64,000 bases of DNA from Acidobacteriota bacterium (GCA_025352795.1 JANXSF010000020.1:130879-194878), one strand, 5' to 3'. Shown: positions 33,421 to 39,794, numbered from the stretch's first letter. Made by a program: numbers and translations. Notes: generated by a model from the letters alone, not told the origin.

Positions 33421-35054
33421 GCTTTTCGTTTCTCCAATTCGCTATCCCGCAGTTCTCTGCGCAAAACTTTTCCAACACTGCTTTTGGGCAACGCAGCAAC
33501 AAATTCCACTTCACTGGGAACTTTAAACTTTGCCAGGTGCCCTTTCAAATATTCCAGGATTTCGGCAACCGAAGCCGCTGCCCCAGGCTTTAACACCACG
33601 AAAGCTTTCACCGCTTCTCCACGATACGGATGCGGAACCCCAATGACACATGCTTCCATAACTTTCGCATGCTTAAAAAGTATTTCTTCCACCTCCAGCG
33701 GAAATACTTTAAGACCGCTAACGATGATCATGTCCTTCACACGTTGGACAATGTAGAAGAAACCATCCTCATCCATTTTCGCAACATCGCCAGTGTGCAT
33801 CCACCCATCGCGCAAAGCATGGGCGGTTTCTTCAGGCTGGTTCCAGTAGCCCTTCATGATCTGCGGACCGCGCACGCACAGTTCCCCTTCCTCACCAATG
33901 CCAACTTCTGTCACATGATCCATCAGATCCACAATCTTGAAGTCCGTGCTGGTAACCGGAATGCCAATGCTGCCGATCTTGCGCTTCGCCAGCAGTGGTG
34001 TGGTGGATGCAGTGCAAGCAGTCTCCGACATTCCAAAACCTTCCCGCAACATCGCTCCACTCATAAGCTCGAACTGTTCTATTACTTCGACGGGTAAAGG
34101 TGCGGAACCACTGTTGAAGTTCTTCACCTTGTGCAGGCCGCAGGTCTTCGCTTCCGGGTGGTTGAGCAGGGCAATAAATAAAGTAGGAACTGCCGGGAAA
34201 AAAGTGGGCGAGTATTGTTTGAAAGCGGCGATCAACATGTTGATGTCGAACTTGGGAATCAGAATGGTCATGGTGCCGTTCCAGGCACTCAACAATAGCC
34301 CAACCACTTGCCCGTAAATATGGAAGTAAGGCAGCACCATCAGCATGCGCTCTTCACCGCGGCGTGTATGATACGAATTCCAAAGTACGTTCTGAATGGT
34401 GTTGGCAAATAGGTTGTAGTGGGTCAACATGGCACCCTTCGGAGTACCTGTGGTCCCGCCGGTGTACTGCAACAAGGCGACATCTTCGGTGGCATTTATC
34501 TGCACCCGAGGCAGTACGCCAACATTACCTTCCGATACCAGTTTGTTCAACAGCAATGGAAAGCCTGTTAACGGTGTTCCATCCAAGGTATATTCGGCTA
34601 ACGATGTGACGATGACATGCGCAACATGAATTTGTGCAGCCTCAGCCAACGGTGCAAGCAGGTCCAGAGTTATTAATGCGCAGATGCCTGCATCCAGCGC
34701 CACCACCGCCAATTCCCGAGCCGTATAGGCAGGGTTGATGTTCGTCGCAATGGCTCCCAGCCGCATCAACGCAAAAAACGTGATGGGATACTGGGGGCAG
34801 TTCGGCAGCATGATGCCGACCCTATCGCCTTGCCGAATGCCCAGTGCGTGCAGGCTGGCCGCCATTCGATCAGCCTGTTCTTTGATCTCTCCAAATGTAA
34901 GCTGCGCTCCAAAGAAGACGGTAGCCGGACGGTCACGATATTGGCTGGCTGCGGTTTGGAGAATCTGGTACAACGACTGCTTGGGGAAATTCGTTGTTGG
35001 CGGAACCCAGAAATCGTAATTGTTCAGCCAAGGTCGACTTGCGTAGACGCTCAT
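33417..35054 (-). CDS. long-chain fatty-acid--CoA ligase (AMP-binding)
   Basis: [21 protein letters not shown] motif, GYGMSE-like GFGMSE, HTGD, SGLKVFP. The stop overlaps the fadB-like start (ATGA). Confidence 0.9.
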
Positions 35055-35082
35055 TTAACCTGAATCCTGAACTGAGTGGTTT

Positions 35083-35186
35083 CTTGGTTAAAAGACCGCT
35101 CCCTTGCGGTCACGGCTCTGTCACGTTCTGATTCTACCGAGCCGTGACCGCGAGGGAGCGGTTTTTCAAAGGGCTGATACGCTTCG
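35083..35186. repeat. REP doublet (REPIN-like) copy 1
   Basis: GACCGCTCCCTTGCGGTCACGGCTC (35094-35118) and its inverse CCGAGCCGTGACCGCGAGGGAGCGGT (35138-35163) are separated by about 19 nt. About 100 nt are roughly 90 percent identical by eye to 57234-57340. The arms match the REPs flanking the RAYT. Confidence 0.8.
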
Positions 35187-35259
35187 TGATGAAACCTGAA
35201 GCCATCCGATTGCGGGAACACTAAGTGACATTGGGCCATGGATTGAAAGTCGACGCTCA

Positions 35260-36036
35260 TTAAACCGCCGTTCCACCGCCATCCACGGCGATCGTTTGAC
35301 CTGTAATATAGCCGCTAGCTTCGCTGGCCAAAAATACGGCGACGCCCTTTAATTCCCCTGGCAAACCAGCGCGCCGCATCGGAACATTGGCCGTGATGGA
35401 AGGCATCACTTGATCCATAATCTTCTCTGTCATCCGCGATGGGAAGAAGCCCGGAGCAATGGCGTTCACCCGAATATTATGCTGCGCCCACTTCGCCGCC
35501 AGCTCTCTGGTGAGTGCGATTAAGCCACCCTTGGACGCCACATATCCGGCATAGTGCAAGCCTTCAGGCATGCTACCGCGCAACCCGGCGATGGATGCAA
35601 TGTTGATGATGCGCCCAAACTTCTGAGCAATCATATGCTTAGCGCAAGCCTGAGAAAACAGGAACGCACCGGTGAGGTTGGTATCCAAAACTTCATGCCA
35701 CTTATCGAGCGGCATGTCTTCGGCGGGAGCGCCCCAACTCACTCCAGCGTTGTTCACCAGAATGTCGATGTGTCCGAAGTGTTCCAAGGTTTTATCCACT
35801 GCCGCTTTCACTTCGTCGGGACTGGTGATGTCGCAAATAGCCCCTTCGCAATAGAAGCCTTTGCGCTTAAAATCTTTTACGGCAGGGGTAAGCCATTTGT
35901 CTCGTCGAGCGACAAGCATCAGCGAACAACCCGCCTCGGCCAGCCCTTCGGCCATTTCTTCACCCAAGCCTCGCGACCCGCCAGTGACCAGGGCAACTCG
36001 GCCATCTAAATCGTAAACGTCTCGTAGAGATTTCAT
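35260..36036 (-). CDS. SDR family oxidoreductase
   Basis: TGGSRGLG cofactor motif, NNAG, catalytic YVASK. 258 aa. Confidence 0.9.
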   Translation of the reverse strand: MKSLRDVYDLDGRVALVTGGSRGLGEEMAEGLAEAGCSLMLVARRDKWLTPAVKDFKRKGFYCEGAICDITSPDEVKAAVDKTLEHFGHIDILVNNAGVSWGAPAEDMPLDKWHEVLDTNLTGAFLFSQACAKHMIAQKFGRIINIASIAGLRGSMPEGLHYAGYVASKGGLIALTRELAAKWAQHNIRVNAIAPGFFPSRMTEKIMDQVMPSITANVPMRRAGLPGELKGVAVFLASEASGYITGQTIAVDGGGTAV

Positions 36037-36161
36037 TCGTGGATGTTCTTGTGAATCTTATATTGTAGAGCAGTCACGAGTATATCTATTGGGATTGTGT
36101 GATTTTTAAAGATCGAGGTTTTTCTCGGCCCGACCCTATGCCGCACCGTTCCAAGCCGTCT

Positions 36162-36443
36162 TCATTCGGGAACAGTCAACCTTACCCTTGTTAGTCCAGG
36201 CCGATGGAAATCAACCGTAACAAATTTGCTTGCTCCGGCCGGGACTTGCAATTGCGTCTTCTGGCCAGCCACCGCCCCGCCTCCATTGTCGAGTAGTTCA
36301 ACCCTTACGAGTCCCGACCAGTGAGTTTTTGCAGAGTTCGAAATATTGCAGTAATAACGGTATAGCCCACCCTCAACAGCGGGAACCTTCACGATCTCTG
36401 CTCTCAGCCCAAAGGGGGCTGGGTCATCATCGGTCATGGCCAT
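36162..36443 (-). CDS. hypothetical small beta-rich protein (possible 3' part of a frameshifted gene)
   Basis: ATG at 36443 in the 36162-36539 ORF (MAMTDDDPAPFGLRAEIVKV...). It overlaps the end of the small TM ORF by 17 nt. No motif recognised. Confidence 0.35.
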   Translation of the reverse strand: MAMTDDDPAPFGLRAEIVKVPAVEGGLYRYYCNISNSAKTHWSGLVRVELLDNGGGAVAGQKTQLQVPAGASKFVTVDFHRPGLTRVRLTVPE

Positions 36444-36594
36444 CTGGCTCACCGGAGTGTGCTTTTTCGGCGGCCTGCGGCTGTTGAGGCTGTACGAAAA
36501 CGCCAGTCCTGGCATTCCAGTAATACACCGCCGCCCCAATAAATAATGCGGCTAAAATGAAGTGCTCAGCCTTGACCTTGGTTCCGCTTTCCAT
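36427..36594 (-). CDS. small single-pass membrane ORF (55 aa), not in the supplied ORF track
   Basis: Hand translation gives MESGTKVKAEHFILAALFIGAAVYYWNARTGVFVQPQQPQAAEKAHSGEPDGHDR. It is preceded by GGAGGA 3 nt upstream of the ATG at 36594 (GGAGGAGTCATG) and has one clear TM helix. Confidence 0.35.
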   Translation of the reverse strand: MESGTKVKAEHFILAALFIGAAVYYWNARTGVFVQPQQPQAAEKAHSGEPDGHDR

Positions 36595-36658
36595 GACTCC
36601 TCCATCTCAGCCTATCCCGCATCAGTCTGCATCCTAGTCAAAGTACAACCGAATTGGC

Positions 36659-36952
36659 TCACACCTTCGACCCGGGCTCAAATTCACTCTCTACTTGTTC
36701 GGCAAACGCCTCTTCTTCAGCTAGATCAGCTTCGATTTCCTCGACATTCGCGTGATAATAGCTGAGGGCTGCGTGCACTTGGGCGAGACTGATATGACCA
36801 TACTGGGAGGCGATTTCTTCTGGAGTAAAGCCCATCTTGTACCATCCCACAACCCGCATTACGGTTACACCGGTTCTGGCAATCTTGGGTCGTGCCCCCC
36901 GTACCTTCGGATCACTGTCGATCAGACTTCCAATCTCGACTGTGGCAATCAT
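36659..36952 (-). CDS. DUF433 domain-containing protein (antitoxin-like HTH)
   Basis: VRGARPKIARTGVTVMRVVGWYKMGFTPEEIASQYGHISLAQVHAALSYYHAN matches the DUF433 consensus shape. Confidence 0.8.
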   Translation of the reverse strand: MIATVEIGSLIDSDPKVRGARPKIARTGVTVMRVVGWYKMGFTPEEIASQYGHISLAQVHAALSYYHANVEEIEADLAEEEAFAEQVESEFEPGSKV

Positions 36953-36981
36953 GCTTCGATTATAGACAGAATTCTTGTCCG

Positions 36982-37461
36982 TCAGACTTCTAAGCCACGG
37001 GCTCGAATATATGTGAAGTTGAGCACGGGAATCTTGTCATAACTTAAGAACCGATATAAATCCAAGTCATCTGTGAACACAGAACAACCCCTTCTCCGCG
37101 CCGCAACACAAATTGCTGCATCGGAAAGTCCAAGTTTGTTGTAAAGAGGGTCGTCGGCCGCTTGCGAGCTTGGTATCCCCACTTCTTCAAGTAGCAAGAT
37201 AGTTTCTTTGACCACGCGTCGGGCTTCTAGCCTCTCGGGGCCCGGGAGATCAGTGAGGTTGCTGACTTCAGCCATGACATGCGCGACTGTATAGAGGGGT
37301 TGGAATTCTTTCAGTACATCAATCAATAAGTCGTAATCCGCAATAGTGTATTGTCTAGTTCTCTTGAAAGTTTCGATCCGAAAGCGGTTCACCCTACCTA
37401 CGGCATAGAGCACTAAAAGATTCGTGTCAACCAATAGCCCGGCAGCTATCCCTGCATTCAT
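36982..37461 (-). CDS. PIN-like domain protein (putative ribonuclease toxin)
   Basis: 159 aa. Acidic residues in PIN order: LLVDTNLL (D12), MAEVSNL (E65), GLSDAAI (D114), VFTDDLD (D131/D132). The start overlaps the upstream ORF's stop (ATGA). Confidence 0.65.
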   Translation of the reverse strand: MNAGIAAGLLVDTNLLVLYAVGRVNRFRIETFKRTRQYTIADYDLLIDVLKEFQPLYTVAHVMAEVSNLTDLPGPERLEARRVVKETILLLEEVGIPSSQAADDPLYNKLGLSDAAICVAARRRGCSVFTDDLDLYRFLSYDKIPVLNFTYIRARGLEV

Positions 37462-37733
37462 TGTGATGCGACTTCACGGATCTTTACGGCAGCGAGTTCG
37501 CCCGTCTCAACATCAATCAAAAAACGTTTGTAGTGGAGTGCATCAATGTAATCACGCCCTAACGACGCCAAGGGATTTTTTTTAAGCTTGTCAGGCAGGC
37601 TTAGCGTGATGCTCCACACTTCCCGCCCTTTATAGGTTTCCCGTTCAATCTCTTCCAAGTTGGAGGAGAGTTCGTTTAGTATATTTGCCGCTTCTTTTTT
37701 TGCGATTTGAACAGCCTGCTTCACATCTATCAT
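37458..37733 (-). CDS. hypothetical 91-aa protein, candidate cognate partner of the PIN-like protein
   Basis: ORF coupled by a 4-nt overlap to the PIN-like gene. N-terminal helix then beta-strands (VWSITLS, YKRFLIDVETGELAAVKI). No known antitoxin DNA-binding motif recognised. Confidence 0.55.
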   Translation of the reverse strand: MIDVKQAVQIAKKEAANILNELSSNLEEIERETYKGREVWSITLSLPDKLKKNPLASLGRDYIDALHYKRFLIDVETGELAAVKIREVASQ

Positions 37734-37772
37734 CGGCAGATTCTCCTACCCAATCGTCGCACAAAGGCTGCC

Positions 37773-38372
37773 TCACGCCACCAGCGTATTCAACCCACCA
37801 ATGCGCTTCGCTTCAAACGCTTCAATGGCTGGCAACTGCTTCAAAATATACCCGATCTCATCCACGCCATCCACCAGACAAGCTTTCGAAAACGAGTCCA
37901 CTGGAAATTCCACGCTTTCCCCATCCGGCAGCGTCAGGCGTTGCGATTGCAAATCAACGCTCAGCTTCATTCCTGAATCGGCGGCCCTCATCTTGAACAG
38001 CTTGGCATGCACATCACGCGAAACCACAATTGGCAATAACGAATTCTTCAGGGAGTTGGCCTTGAAAATGTCCGCAAACGATGTGGAAATCACCGCCTTG
38101 AATCCGAACTGAGTCAATGCCCATGGCGCATGTTCGCGGCTTGATCCGCAACCGAAATTGTCACCCGCTAACAGAATTTCAGCACCCTTCGATTCTACCT
38201 GGTTCAACACAAATTCTGGATTCGGCGAACCATCGGCCAAGTATCGCCAATCATTGAATAGCTGATCCCCTAACCCGACTTTTGAGATCGTCTTTAAGAA
38301 GCGCGCCGGGATAATCTGATCGGTATCAATGTTATCGGTCGGCATTAAAACCACTCGGCTTTCAAACTTCAT
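37773..38372 (-). CDS. leuD: 3-isopropylmalate dehydratase small subunit
   Basis: DNIDTDQIIPARFL and GDNFGCGSSREHAPWAL motifs. Abuts the leuC stop. Confidence 0.93.
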   Translation of the reverse strand: MKFESRVVLMPTDNIDTDQIIPARFLKTISKVGLGDQLFNDWRYLADGSPNPEFVLNQVESKGAEILLAGDNFGCGSSREHAPWALTQFGFKAVISTSFADIFKANSLKNSLLPIVVSRDVHAKLFKMRAADSGMKLSVDLQSQRLTLPDGESVEFPVDSFSKACLVDGVDEIGYILKQLPAIEAFEAKRIGGLNTLVA

Positions 38373-39794
38373 TTACTTAACCCCCAGCAAAGTTCGCACG
38401 TCTGTTACAACCCCATTTACCGCACTGGCTGCAGCAGTCATCGGGCTGGCCAGGAACGTCCGCCCACCCTTGCCTTGCCGACCTTCAAAATTTCTATTCG
38501 ATGTAGACACGCTGTATTGCCCTGGTGCCAATTGATCGCCATTCATGGCGATGCACATAGAACAACCAGCCTCACGCCATTCCGCACCGGCTGCCTTGAA
38601 AATCTCGTCCAACCCTTCCGCCTGTGCCTGTCGCTTGATTTCCTGCGACCCCGGAACCACCAGCATGCGCACGCCCGGATTCACCTTGCGTCCCTTCAAT
38701 ATGCTGGCCGCAGCTCGCAAATCGCTCAACCGGGAATTCGTACAGCTTCCAACGAACACCACATTCACCGGATGGCCTGCCAAGGGTTGCCCAGGTTGCA
38801 GATCCATATATTTCAGAGCCTTGGTCAACGAATCGCGCTCTAACTTATCGGTCATGGCAGCCGGATCGGGAATCAAGCCTGATATCGAAATGCCTTGTCC
38901 AGGATTGGTGCCGAACGTAATCATCGGTTCCAACTCATCGGCGTTGATGGTAATGCTGTGATCGTAGACAGCACCTTCATCCGTCGGCAACTGCTTCCAA
39001 CGGGCCACAGCGGCGTCCCAATCGGCACCCTTCGGAACAAAACGACGACCCTTCAAGAATTGATAAGTAGTCTCATCCGGGGCAATCAAGCCGGCCCGTG
39101 CGCCGCCCTCAATGGCCATGTTGCAAACGGTCATCCGCTCTTCCATGGAAAGTGCTCGTATGGCTGACCCGGTGAACTCAAAAATACAACCCGTGCCGCC
39201 GCCGATCCCAATGCGACTGATCAGCGCCAGAATAATATCCTTGGCCGCTACGCCCGGCTTCAGCGTTCCATCTACCTGAACTTGATATGTCTTCGATCGG
39301 CGCTGCAGCAATACTTGGGTGGCCAGCACCATTTCCACTTCACTAGTCCCGATGCCGAAGGCTAAGGCCCCAAACGCGCCGTGGGTGGCGGTATGGGAAT
39401 CGCCGCAAACTACGGTCATGCCGGGCTGGGTCAGTCCTTGTTCAGGTCCAATCACATGACAAATGCCGTTGTTCTCATTGTGAAATCCGAAGTACGGAAT
39501 GCCGAACTCGTCAGCATTTTTCCCCAGTTGTTCCACTTGCGTGGCGGCAATCTGATCCACAATCGGCAATGATTTCGCCGTGGTGGGTGTGGAATGATCC
39601 ACTGTCGCAAACGTGGATTCTGCCCGGCGGACGGTGCGTCCCATTTCACGCAAGCCAGAAAAGGCTTGGGGCGAGGTCACTTCATGCACCAGATGGAAGT
39701 CGATATAGAGCAGGCAGGGGGCCCCCTCTTGTTCGGCAACTACGTGCGAATCCCAAACTTTTTCAATAATTGTGCGTGGCTTAGATTGCATCAC
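38373..39794 (-). CDS. leuC: 3-isopropylmalate dehydratase large subunit
   Basis: Aconitase-family motifs [31 protein letters not shown]. 473 aa. Confidence 0.95.

What the first reader, a model, noticed from the sequence alone, without database searches (positions are those of the whole stretch)
36659..37733. Non-canonical three-gene PIN-nuclease module (unknown 91-aa protein, PIN-like, DUF433) inserted right after leuD
Seen in the sequence: three tightly packed ORFs lie on the minus strand, beginning 40 nt after the leuD stop.
- 37733-37458 encodes 91 aa, a helix then beta-strands (VWSITLS, YKRFLIDVETGELAAVKI). I recognise no DNA-binding motif in it.
- 37461-36982 encodes 159 aa and overlaps the first ORF by ATGA. 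It carries acidic residues in PIN order (D12 in LLVDTN, E65 in MAEVSN, D114 in GLSDAA, D131/132 in FTDD).
- 36952-36659 encodes 97 aa after a 29-nt gap and has a clear DUF433 signature.
By eye the stretch is AT-richer than the leu operon and the SDR gene on either side.

Established knowledge: VapC-type PIN toxins are normally preceded by an AbrB/RHH/Phd/HTH antitoxin. DUF433 is normally the upstream partner of a DUF5615/Mut7-C PIN-like toxin.

Inference: the order unknown-protein, PIN, DUF433 fits neither described architecture, and the upstream partner is uncharacterised. This may be a tripartite or novel-antitoxin TA/defence module acquired horizontally.
Basis: partly seen in the sequence, partly recalled or inferred. 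Interest (0 to 1): 0.75.

Follow-up and report, generated by a model that had tools for sequence, protein, structure and literature searches.

The report
Two toxin-antitoxin modules, not one trio
The three small genes after leuD are two unrelated selfish modules side by side: an intact PIN-nuclease gene that always travels with an uncharacterised PepSY-like partner, and a leftover DUF433 antitoxin whose own toxin gene has been deleted.

Summary
The three minus-strand ORFs, the ATGA overlap, the PIN acidic residues and the DUF433 domain are all there. The "tripartite" reading is not supported.

(1) The 91-aa gene (A) and the 159-aa PIN gene (B) form a conserved two-gene unit. A sits directly upstream of B with an ATGA/GTGA junction in 13 of 13 intact genome loci, and in two of three distant relatives checked. 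The unit lies at different chromosomal sites, and DUF433 is never next to it elsewhere. B models confidently as a VapC-like PIN fold, with D12, E65, D114, D131 and D132 invariant in 120 homologues. A is a stand-alone, cytoplasmic, divergent PepSY/cystatin-like protein with no recognisable DNA-binding domain. No curated family covers it.

(2) Close relatives of the DUF433 gene are each followed by a DUF5615 PIN-like toxin gene. In the window only about 35 nt of that toxin gene remain, carrying a frameshift and a stop codon. DUF433 here is therefore an orphan antitoxin.

(3) The leuD/SDR junction is a toxin-antitoxin hotspot. A strain with 96% identical LeuD carries a different PIN pair there, and a strain with 89% identical LeuD carries only relics.

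Best reading: A-B is a type II-like PIN module with an unusual partner. Its function is untested. Interest is moderate.

The parts
37458..37733 (-). Gene A: 91-aa stand-alone PepSY/cystatin-like protein, the conserved upstream partner (candidate antitoxin) of the PIN gene
   Evidence: ORF. 422 homologues of about 89 aa. 713 clusters at 50% identity in the exhaustive search, nearly all 85-100 aa and stand-alone. 58 of 120 members match Pfam PepSY at E<0.01, best 2.6e-6, but the window protein scores 16.8 bits against a gathering score of 24. AF2 pLDDT 80.5: helix 4-19 plus four strands. Foldseek gives only weak matches, to 4exr lipoprotein CD1622, cystatins and a cathelin-like domain, and no DNA-binding fold. 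No N-terminal hydrophobic signal sequence on reading the protein.
36982..37461 (-). Gene B: 159-aa VapC-like PIN-domain nuclease (candidate toxin), translationally coupled to A by an ATGA overlap
   Evidence: ORF. 465 homologues, mostly 166 aa and carrying PF01850. 120 of 120 aligned members match PIN. D12, E65, D114, D131 and D132 are invariant. AF2 pLDDT 92.8. Top Foldseek PDB matches are VapC21, AF0591, PAE0151, PAE2754, FitB and VapC11/15/20, all at probability 1.0.
37750..37765 (-). Semi-conserved 16-nt motif (TTTGTGCGACGATTGG) upstream of A. It marks the left edge of the inserted stretch. AGGAG Shine-Dalgarno at 37747..37743
   Evidence: The alignment of regions upstream of A from 14 loci gives the consensus TnTCATGnnACnATGG, 20-40 nt before the ATG. 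Homology with sister strain L045 stops at 37765. Sequence read. A role as promoter or operator is inference only.
36659..36952 (-). Gene C: 97-aa DUF433 (COG2442) protein, an orphan antitoxin of a decayed DUF433-DUF5615 pair
   Evidence: Pfam DUF433, E 3.8e-15. Relatives at 57-76% identity (L032, L034, L035, L041-43) are followed, with a 4-nt overlap, by a 120-121-aa gene that matches PF18480 DUF5615 at E 2.7e-9 and 4.2e-12.
36959..36964 (-). TATAAT box 6 nt upstream of the DUF433 ATG. It is conserved with other DUF433 loci and is probably the gene's own promoter, giving a leaderless transcript
   Evidence: Alignment of the DUF433 upstream regions of the window, L032, L033 and L034. Sequence read. 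Promoter function is inferred.
36628..36662 (-). Relic of the DUF5615 (PIN-like) toxin gene. About 35 nt of its 5' end remain, with ATG changed to GTG, a 1-nt deletion and GAG changed to TAG. The rest is deleted
   Evidence: tblastn reads IRLYFD*DA against IRLYFDEDA, 8 of 9 identical, at exactly the expected position. In the DNA alignment TGAGCC-AATTCGGTTGTACTTTGACTAGGATGCA matches L032-L035, and homology ends after it. Sequence read.
36101..37765 (.). Strain-specific variable stretch between leuD and the SDR gene, a toxin-antitoxin hotspot. It holds A, B, C, the toxin relic and two small unknown genes (55 aa at 36594..36427, 91 aa at 36437..36162)
   Evidence: blastn of the window against sister strains. 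L045 (LeuD 96%, SDR 98% identical) is homologous only outside 37765..36101, and L046 only outside 37594..36087.

Best explanation
The stretch holds two independent toxin-antitoxin-type modules that landed side by side in a variable junction downstream of the leu operon.

Module 1 (A+B) is an intact, mobile two-gene operon. B is a VapC-like, Mg-dependent PIN ribonuclease. A is made first and is translationally coupled to B through the ATGA overlap. A is a small acidic cytoplasmic PepSY/cystatin-like protein that most likely neutralises B by binding it directly. It has no recognisable DNA-binding domain, unlike classical VapB antitoxins, which also repress their own operon.

Module 2 is the remnant of a DUF433-DUF5615 (VapBC45-like) pair. 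The toxin gene has been deleted except for about 35 nt. The DUF433 antitoxin gene survives with its own conserved TATAAT box.

Shown:
- the gene structure;
- the conserved A-B pairing and junction;
- the PIN fold and invariant acidic residues;
- the PepSY-like nature of A;
- the toxin relic;
- the presence/absence polymorphism at the junction.

Inferred:
- that B is toxic;
- that A is its inhibitor and acts by binding;
- that DUF433 is transcribed on its own.

The confidence of 0.65 combines about 0.9 for the two-module anatomy with about 0.55 for the TA mechanism of A-B.
For: A-B pairing:
- An A homologue lies immediately upstream of B in 13 of 13 intact genome loci. The 14th locus, L014, is a truncated B relic.
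- The A/B junction is ATGA or GTGA in all 13.
- The pair also occurs after a sulfatase gene, after bshC, and in distant relatives with about 37% identical B (L049, L052).
- None of these loci has DUF433.

B:
- AF2 pLDDT is 92.8 and the top Foldseek hits are VapC/FitB toxins.
- Five acidic residues are invariant.

A:
- 58 of 120 members match PepSY.
- The model is a helix plus a four-stranded sheet, with cystatin and CD1622 as the nearest folds.
- There are no hits in NCBIfam or PADLOC.

Selfish-element behaviour:
- A strain with 96% identical LeuD carries a different PIN pair at the same junction.
- A strain with 89% identical LeuD has a 47-codon relic of A and no B.
- A and B have lower GC and GC3 than every long ORF in the window.

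DUF433 independence:
- Its relatives carry a DUF5615 partner.
- A toxin relic is present in the window.
- A TATAAT box is conserved 6 nt before its ATG.
- DUF433/COG2442 is a published predicted PIN antitoxin (PMC2701414, PMC5499597).
Against: - No experiment shows toxicity of B or neutralisation by A.
- I could not model the A-B complex.
- A's PepSY match is below Pfam's gathering score for the window protein, and its Foldseek E-values are weak (about 0.1).
- B is mildly acidic (pI 5.5; family median 6.1).
- B is highly conserved: 74% mean column identity among the best 120 hits.
- The pair often sits at the 3' end of housekeeping operons in the same orientation.
- One distant A-like gene is solitary in a housekeeping neighbourhood (L050).

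All of these would also fit a non-toxic nuclease with an accessory factor. The window's B scores 0.1 bit below the Pfam PIN threshold. A functional link between B and the adjacent DUF433 protein (cross-neutralisation) cannot be excluded by sequence alone.
Confidence: 0.65

Rival explanations
1. Tripartite module: A, B and DUF433 act together, for example DUF433 as the DNA-binding regulator or second antitoxin that A lacks.
For: DUF433 is a known PIN-associated, DNA-binding-type antitoxin, and A has no DNA-binding fold. The three genes are tightly packed on one strand. B has a faint DUF5615 resemblance (E 0.08; 6 of 120 members at E<0.01).
Against: None of 13 genome loci and none of the further A-B contigs has DUF433 next to the pair. 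DUF433 relatives have their own DUF5615 partner. A relic of that partner lies directly after DUF433 in the window. DUF433 keeps its own conserved TATAAT box. C has native-like GC while A and B do not.
Confidence: 0.05
2. A-B is not a toxin-antitoxin system. It is a conserved acidobacterial RNA-processing PIN nuclease with a small accessory or chaperone protein, and it has a cellular rather than a selfish function.
For: Sequence conservation is high (74% mean column identity for B). The pair often lies at the end of housekeeping operons in the same orientation (leu, dxr-rseP-bshC). Both proteins are acidic. One A-like gene is solitary between housekeeping genes. There is no PADLOC hit.
Against: The pair lies at different loci in different genomes. 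It is absent from, or decayed in, close relatives at the very same junction, and L014 holds a truncated relic. It sits in a slot that in sister strains hosts another PIN pair, and it has deviant composition. Core functions do not usually show this patchiness.
Confidence: 0.2
3. A-B is an anti-phage abortive-infection or defence module. A acts as a sensor or decoy that releases the PIN nuclease on infection.
For: Many type II TA-like PIN pairs have been shown to defend against phage (general knowledge). The PepSY/cystatin-like fold is a protein-binding inhibitor fold. The pair behaves as a mobile element.
Against: There is no PADLOC match. No defence genes lie in the neighbourhoods examined. 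BFVD has no significant phage counterpart of A. Nothing here distinguishes defence from plain addiction.
Confidence: 0.1

Closest known systems
VapBC type II toxin-antitoxin systems (VapC PIN-domain RNases with a VapB antitoxin)
   Same: The small upstream gene overlaps a downstream PIN gene. B has a VapC-like fold (Foldseek matches to VapC21, VapC11/15/20 and FitB). The acidic residues are invariant. Distribution is patchy and mobile, and decayed copies exist.
   Different: The upstream partner is not AbrB, RHH, Phd/YefM, HTH or DUF433. It is a folded PepSY/cystatin-like alpha+beta protein with no recognisable DNA-binding domain. B is about 30 aa longer than typical VapC, with an insertion between the first two acidic residues, and it has no close solved relative by sequence.
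DUF433 (COG2442)-PIN_10/DUF5615 pairs, e.g. M. tuberculosis VapBC45 (Rv2018/Rv2019); Makarova 2009 PMC2701414, Matelska 2017 PMC5499597
   Same: Gene C is a clear DUF433 protein. Its nearest relatives have the canonical order DUF433 then DUF5615, with a 4-nt overlap.
   Different: In the window the DUF5615 toxin gene is reduced to a 35-nt relic with a frameshift and a stop codon. Only the antitoxin half is left.
PepSY domain proteins (PF03413: M4 peptidase propeptides, YpeB), described as secreted protease inhibitors or regulators
   Same: There is weak but recurrent HMM similarity (58 of 120 members). Some members are named 'PepSY domain-containing protein' by NCBI. The layout is the same: a helix packed on a four-stranded sheet.
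   Different: A is a cytoplasmic single-domain protein with no signal peptide or membrane anchor. It is tied to a PIN nuclease gene rather than to a peptidase. The window protein is below the Pfam threshold.

Membership tests
PIN domain / VapC-like toxin | Match to the Pfam PIN model (PF01850) at or above the gathering score | tested here: inconclusive
   The window protein scores 23.5 bits against a cut-off of 23.6. All 120 aligned homologues match at E<0.01, best 2.1e-10, and most carry PF01850 in the precomputed annotation.
PIN domain / VapC-like toxin | PIN (Rossmann-like alpha/beta/alpha) fold | tested here: met
   AF2 pLDDT 92.8, pTM 0.88. Foldseek PDB probability is 1.0 to VapC21, AF0591, PAE0151, PAE2754, FitB and VapC11/15/20, with TM 0.5-0.7.
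PIN domain / VapC-like toxin | Conserved acidic residues (usually four) in the order D...E...D...D | tested here: met
   D12, E65, D114, D131 and D132 are invariant in 120 sequences. I could not check their spatial clustering in the model.
PIN domain / VapC-like toxin | Cognate antitoxin gene immediately upstream, in one operon | tested here: met
   A lies upstream of B in 13 of 13 intact loci with an ATGA/GTGA junction. The same holds in the distant pairs L049 and L052.
Classical VapB antitoxins | N-terminal DNA-binding domain (AbrB/SpoVT, RHH, Phd/YefM, HTH) plus a C-terminal toxin-binding tail | tested here: not met
   Pfam, NCBIfam and PADLOC give no such domain. The AF2 model is one compact alpha+beta4 domain, and the Foldseek hits are cystatin- or PepSY-like.
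Type II toxin-antitoxin system (functional definition) | The toxin inhibits growth and the antitoxin neutralises it by protein-protein binding | not testable with these tools
   This needs expression experiments and interaction assays.
DUF433-DUF5615 (VapBC45-like) pair | DUF433 domain in the upstream gene | tested here: met
   PF04255, E 3.8e-15, 55.9 bits against a cut-off of 23.6.
DUF433-DUF5615 (VapBC45-like) pair | Intact DUF5615/PIN_10 toxin gene immediately downstream | tested here: not met
   Only a 35-nt relic with a frameshift and a TAG stop remains. Relatives L032, L034, L035 and L041-43 have the intact gene.
PepSY domain (PF03413) | Match to the Pfam model at or above the gathering score | tested here: not met
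   The window protein scores 16.8 bits against 24. 58 of 120 family members reach E<0.01, best 2.6e-6. It is a distant relative, not a certified member.
Tripartite TA / three-gene module A-B-DUF433 | Conserved co-occurrence of all three genes | tested here: not met
   DUF433 is absent from all 13 A-B genome loci and from L015-L025. A and B are absent from all 13 DUF433 loci L032-L044. The trio occurs only in contigs that encode an identical DUF433 protein in the same leuD...SDR gene order; L026, the only one compared at DNA level, is 99.9% identical to the window.

The most novel reading that the evidence does not exclude
The A family (about 700 clusters at 50% identity, mainly in Acidobacteriota) is a new class of antitoxin. 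It would be a folded PepSY/cystatin-like protein that blocks a VapC-like PIN nuclease as a globular protein inhibitor, much as PepSY and cystatin domains block peptidases, without any DNA-binding or autoregulatory domain. Control of the operon would then have to work differently from classical conditional cooperativity.
Probability: 0.45. Interest if true: 0.55.

Novelty: new variant of a known kind. Interest (0 to 1): 0.45.

Why it matters
If A really is the inhibitor of B, it adds a structurally new antitoxin type to the PIN/VapC world: a globular PepSY/cystatin-like inhibitor with no DNA-binding domain. It would also extend the PepSY fold from extracellular protease control to intracellular nuclease control. 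That would matter for TA-prediction pipelines, which look for DNA-binding partners and would miss these pairs in soil Acidobacteriota.

The locus is also a clear natural example of TA turnover at one chromosomal slot. Closely related strains show an intact pair, an orphan antitoxin with a toxin relic, a different PIN pair, and chimeric relics. The DUF433 part by itself is ordinary.

Tried and rejected
- **Sequence searches of A and B against PDB chains**, as single sequences and as profiles, gave nothing significant. The only hint was a weak hit of B to the MJ1533 PIN domain, E 0.62.
- **NCBIfam and PADLOC** gave no hits for A or B.
- **BFVD fold search of A** gave no significant viral counterpart.
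- **Sigma-70 promoter and terminator scan of 35900-38500** found nothing above shuffled expectation. It found no promoter for A-B and no terminator between leuD and A or between B and C.
- **Repeat search of the stretch** found no flanking direct or inverted repeats that would indicate a transposon or an integrase site.
- **Remnant of the L045-type VapBC pair in the window**: none found.
- **Literature searches** for PepSY or cystatin-like proteins as PIN antitoxins found no paper.
- **Considered and rejected:** that the 55-aa or 91-aa gene downstream of DUF433 is its toxin partner. Neither has a DUF5615 or PIN hit or any similarity to the DUF5615 partners.
- **Not done:** A-B complex prediction (the tool folds single chains only), paired-alignment coevolution (too few independent pairs), and a census of copy number per complete genome.

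Full report
**Observation.** The ORF list confirms three minus-strand ORFs at the stated coordinates.
- A: 37733..37458, 91 aa.
- B: 37461..36982, 159 aa. Its ATG overlaps the stop codon of A (ATGA).
- C: 36952..36659, 97 aa, starting 29 nt after B.

The leuD stop codon is at 37775..37773, 39 nt before A.

Pfam gives three results:
- DUF433 for C (E 3.8e-15).
- PIN for B at 23.5 bits, against a gathering score of 23.6.
- A sub-threshold PepSY match for A (E 0.0087).

NCBIfam and PADLOC give nothing for A or B.

Composition: A has GC 0.453 and GC3 0.478; B has GC 0.479 and GC3 0.487. Both lie below every one of the 36 long ORFs of the window (GC 0.523 +/- 0.015, minimum 0.495; GC3 minimum 0.496). 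C (0.520) and the two small genes that follow do not deviate.

**A and B are a conserved pair.** B has 465 homologues at E <= 0.001. Most are 166 aa, carry PF01850 and come from Acidobacteriota MAGs. A has 422 homologues of about 89 aa.

In 14 genome loci found through B (all Bryobacterales, Solibacter or Terriglobia MAGs), tblastn finds an A homologue immediately upstream of B in 13. The 14th locus, L014, is a truncated B fragment with no A, so it is a decayed copy. The A/B junction reads ATGA or GTGA in all 13.

The pair lies at different places in different genomes:
- after a sulfatase gene (L015-17);
- after dxr-rseP-bshC (L018-25);
- after leuD in the window, and in the other contigs that encode an identical DUF433 protein. 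One of these, JAYSLA010000061.1 of assembly GCA_043725925.1, is 99.9% identical to the window over the 3.2 kb compared.

None of the other A-B loci has DUF433.

An exhaustive profile search with the A alignment finds 713 clusters at 50% identity at E <= 0.001, and 93 at E <= 1e-10. Almost all are stand-alone proteins of 85-100 aa, so fusion to a DNA-binding domain is not a feature of the family.

I looked up three distant A-like proteins:
- Two (L049, L052) are followed, with a 4-nt overlap, by a 160- or 163-aa B-like gene. These match the B profile at E 1.7e-30 and 1.2e-42, and the L049 protein is 37% identical to B.
- One (L050) is solitary, between housekeeping genes.

**What B is.**

AlphaFold2 with that alignment gives pLDDT 92.8 and pTM 0.88. 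Foldseek against the PDB returns only PIN domains at the top, all at probability 1.0 and TM 0.5-0.7: VapC21, AF0591, PAE0151, PAE2754, FitB and VapC11/15/20.

By sequence alone there is no close solved relative.

All 120 members match Pfam PIN. A few also give faint matches to PIN_2, PIN_9 or DUF5615, which is clan-level resemblance.

B is therefore a divergent VapC-like PIN nuclease with an intact active-site signature. It is about 30 residues longer than typical VapC.

**What A is.** 58 of 120 members match Pfam PepSY at E<0.01, best 2.6e-6. NCBI names some of them 'PepSY domain-containing protein'.

The AF2 model (pLDDT 80.5) has an N-terminal helix (residues 4-19) followed by four strands, with a disordered loop at 56-63.

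Foldseek matches are weak (E about 0.1) but consistent in kind: the CD1622 lipoprotein 4exr (TMq 0.58, rmsd 2.7, probability 1.0), cystatins C and D, and the cathelin-like domain. From memory, 4exr is a PepSY-type structure; I did not verify this.

No DNA-binding fold appears in any search. The sequence has no signal peptide or hydrophobic anchor on direct reading, so unlike classical PepSY proteins it should be cytoplasmic. A is mildly acidic (pI 5.8; family median 5.2).

No paper in the library links PepSY or cystatin-like proteins with PIN antitoxins.

**What C is.** A metagenome scan with C returned 13 loci. None of them has A, B, leuD or the SDR gene.

In L032, L034 and L035 (72-76% identical), and in L041-43 (about 60%), DUF433 is followed, with a 4-nt overlap, by a 120-121-aa gene beginning MSRIRLYFDEDAMQ.... 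That gene matches Pfam DUF5615 at E 2.7e-9 and 4.2e-12. In L033 the gene carries an internal deletion.

This is the published DUF433/COG2442-PIN_10 architecture (Makarova 2009, PMC2701414; Matelska 2017, PMC5499597).

In the window, the minus strand directly after the DUF433 stop codon reads IRLYFD*DA, against IRLYFDEDA in the intact toxin. At the DNA level, TGAGCC-AATTCGGTTGTACTTTGACTAGGATGCA aligns with the first 35 nt of the toxin genes of L032-L035. It differs by ATG changed to GTG, a 1-nt deletion and GAG changed to TAG. All homology stops after that point.

So the toxin gene has been deleted and DUF433 is an orphan antitoxin.

A TATAAT box lies 6 nt before the DUF433 ATG (36964..36959). 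It is conserved in L032, L033 and L034. This suggests the gene has its own promoter and a leaderless transcript; that is inference.

**The junction is a hotspot.** I looked up the genomic context of LeuD homologues.
- L045 (LeuD 96%, SDR 98% identical) has the same flanks, leuABCD and SDR/AMP-ligase/ECH. Between them lie a different 80-97-aa gene and a 141-aa VapC-type PIN gene (PF01850, E 1.5e-11). There is no nucleotide homology to window 37765..36101.
- L046 (LeuD 89%, SDR 93% identical) has a 47-codon relic of A (70% identical), followed by the C-terminal part of the L045-type small protein, and no PIN gene.
- More distant relatives have a Uma2 gene or unrelated genes after leuD.

The left edge of the window-specific DNA (37765) coincides with a 16-nt motif, TTTGTGCGACGATTGG. 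This motif is semi-conserved 20-40 nt upstream of A in most loci, with consensus TnTCATGnnACnATGG. It may be a promoter or an operator that travels with the pair; its function is unknown.

No flanking repeats, sigma-70-type promoter or terminator were detected.

**Mechanism.** The most likely reading is a type II-like module.
- B is a PIN RNase toxin.
- A is made first and is translationally coupled to B. It neutralises B by direct binding as a globular inhibitor.
- Because A lacks a DNA-binding domain, autoregulation, if there is any, must differ from that of VapB.

The selfish-element signature supports this: variable location, presence/absence among close strains, relics in which the nuclease is lost or truncated (L046, L014), a position in a TA slot, and deviant GC. 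It does not prove it.

Toxicity, neutralisation and binding are all inferred.

The main rival is a non-toxic nuclease with an accessory factor. It is favoured by the high conservation, the acidic B, the operon-end positions and one solitary A-like gene. It is disfavoured by the patchiness.

The tripartite reading is essentially excluded.

**Verdict.** The DUF433 part is ordinary, a decayed known TA pair. The A-B pair is a new variant of a known kind: a VapC-like PIN gene with an undescribed PepSY/cystatin-like partner family, widespread in Acidobacteriota and absent from curated family libraries. Interest is moderate (0.45).

Confidence is about 0.9 for the two-module anatomy and about 0.55 for the TA mechanism of A-B. 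The combined figure of 0.65 reflects both.

Noticed in passing
window 36427..36594 (-) and 36162..36437 (-): Two small genes lie between DUF433 and the SDR gene: a 55-aa protein with one hydrophobic helix and a 91-aa beta-rich protein. They have no Pfam match. They are part of the strain-specific stretch and are absent from sister strains L045 and L046. They overlap each other by 11 nt.
   Followed up: partly
L045 4065..4783: A strain with 96% identical LeuD carries a different pair at the same leuD/SDR junction. It is an 80-97-aa protein with no Pfam match plus a 141-aa canonical VapC PIN protein (MNTYFADTSFWIAL..., PF01850 E 1.5e-11).
   Followed up: partly
L046 5140..5488: A chimeric graveyard. 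A 50-codon relic of gene A (first 47 aa, 70% identical) runs into the C-terminal half of the L045-type small protein. No PIN gene is left.
   Followed up: partly
L052 722..1213: In this distant B-like protein the positions equivalent to E65 and D131 read Q and T (HVLSQTSDL, LTTDLAL). It may be a catalytically dead copy still paired with an A-like gene.
   Followed up: no
L050 3001..3279: A distant A-like gene (P0505) stands alone between a YmdB-like phosphoesterase gene and a prephenate dehydrogenase gene, near tig and clpP. No B-like sequence appears in any frame. Either it is an orphan, or the fold has a second role.
   Followed up: partly
window 36959..36964 (-); L032, L033, L034 upstream of DUF433: A TATAAT hexamer is conserved 6 nt before the DUF433 start codon in four loci. 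This implies leaderless mRNAs for this DUF433 subfamily.
   Followed up: partly
L033 3291..3500: The DUF5615 toxin gene next to a 74% identical DUF433 gene has an internal deletion: 69 aa, with the N- and C-termini retained. This is a second, independent case of toxin decay with the antitoxin kept.
   Followed up: no
window 35051..35260 (-): A 69-aa ORF sits between the SDR gene and the AMP-dependent ligase gene, abutting or overlapping both. It is also called as a gene in the NCBI assembly (L026 6693..6902). It has no Pfam hit on record.
   Followed up: no
L048 1..976: A Tn3-family transposase gene (DDE_Tnp_Tn3) lies directly upstream of leuA in a relative with 79% identical LeuD. The leu region is flanked by mobile DNA in that genome as well.
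   Followed up: no
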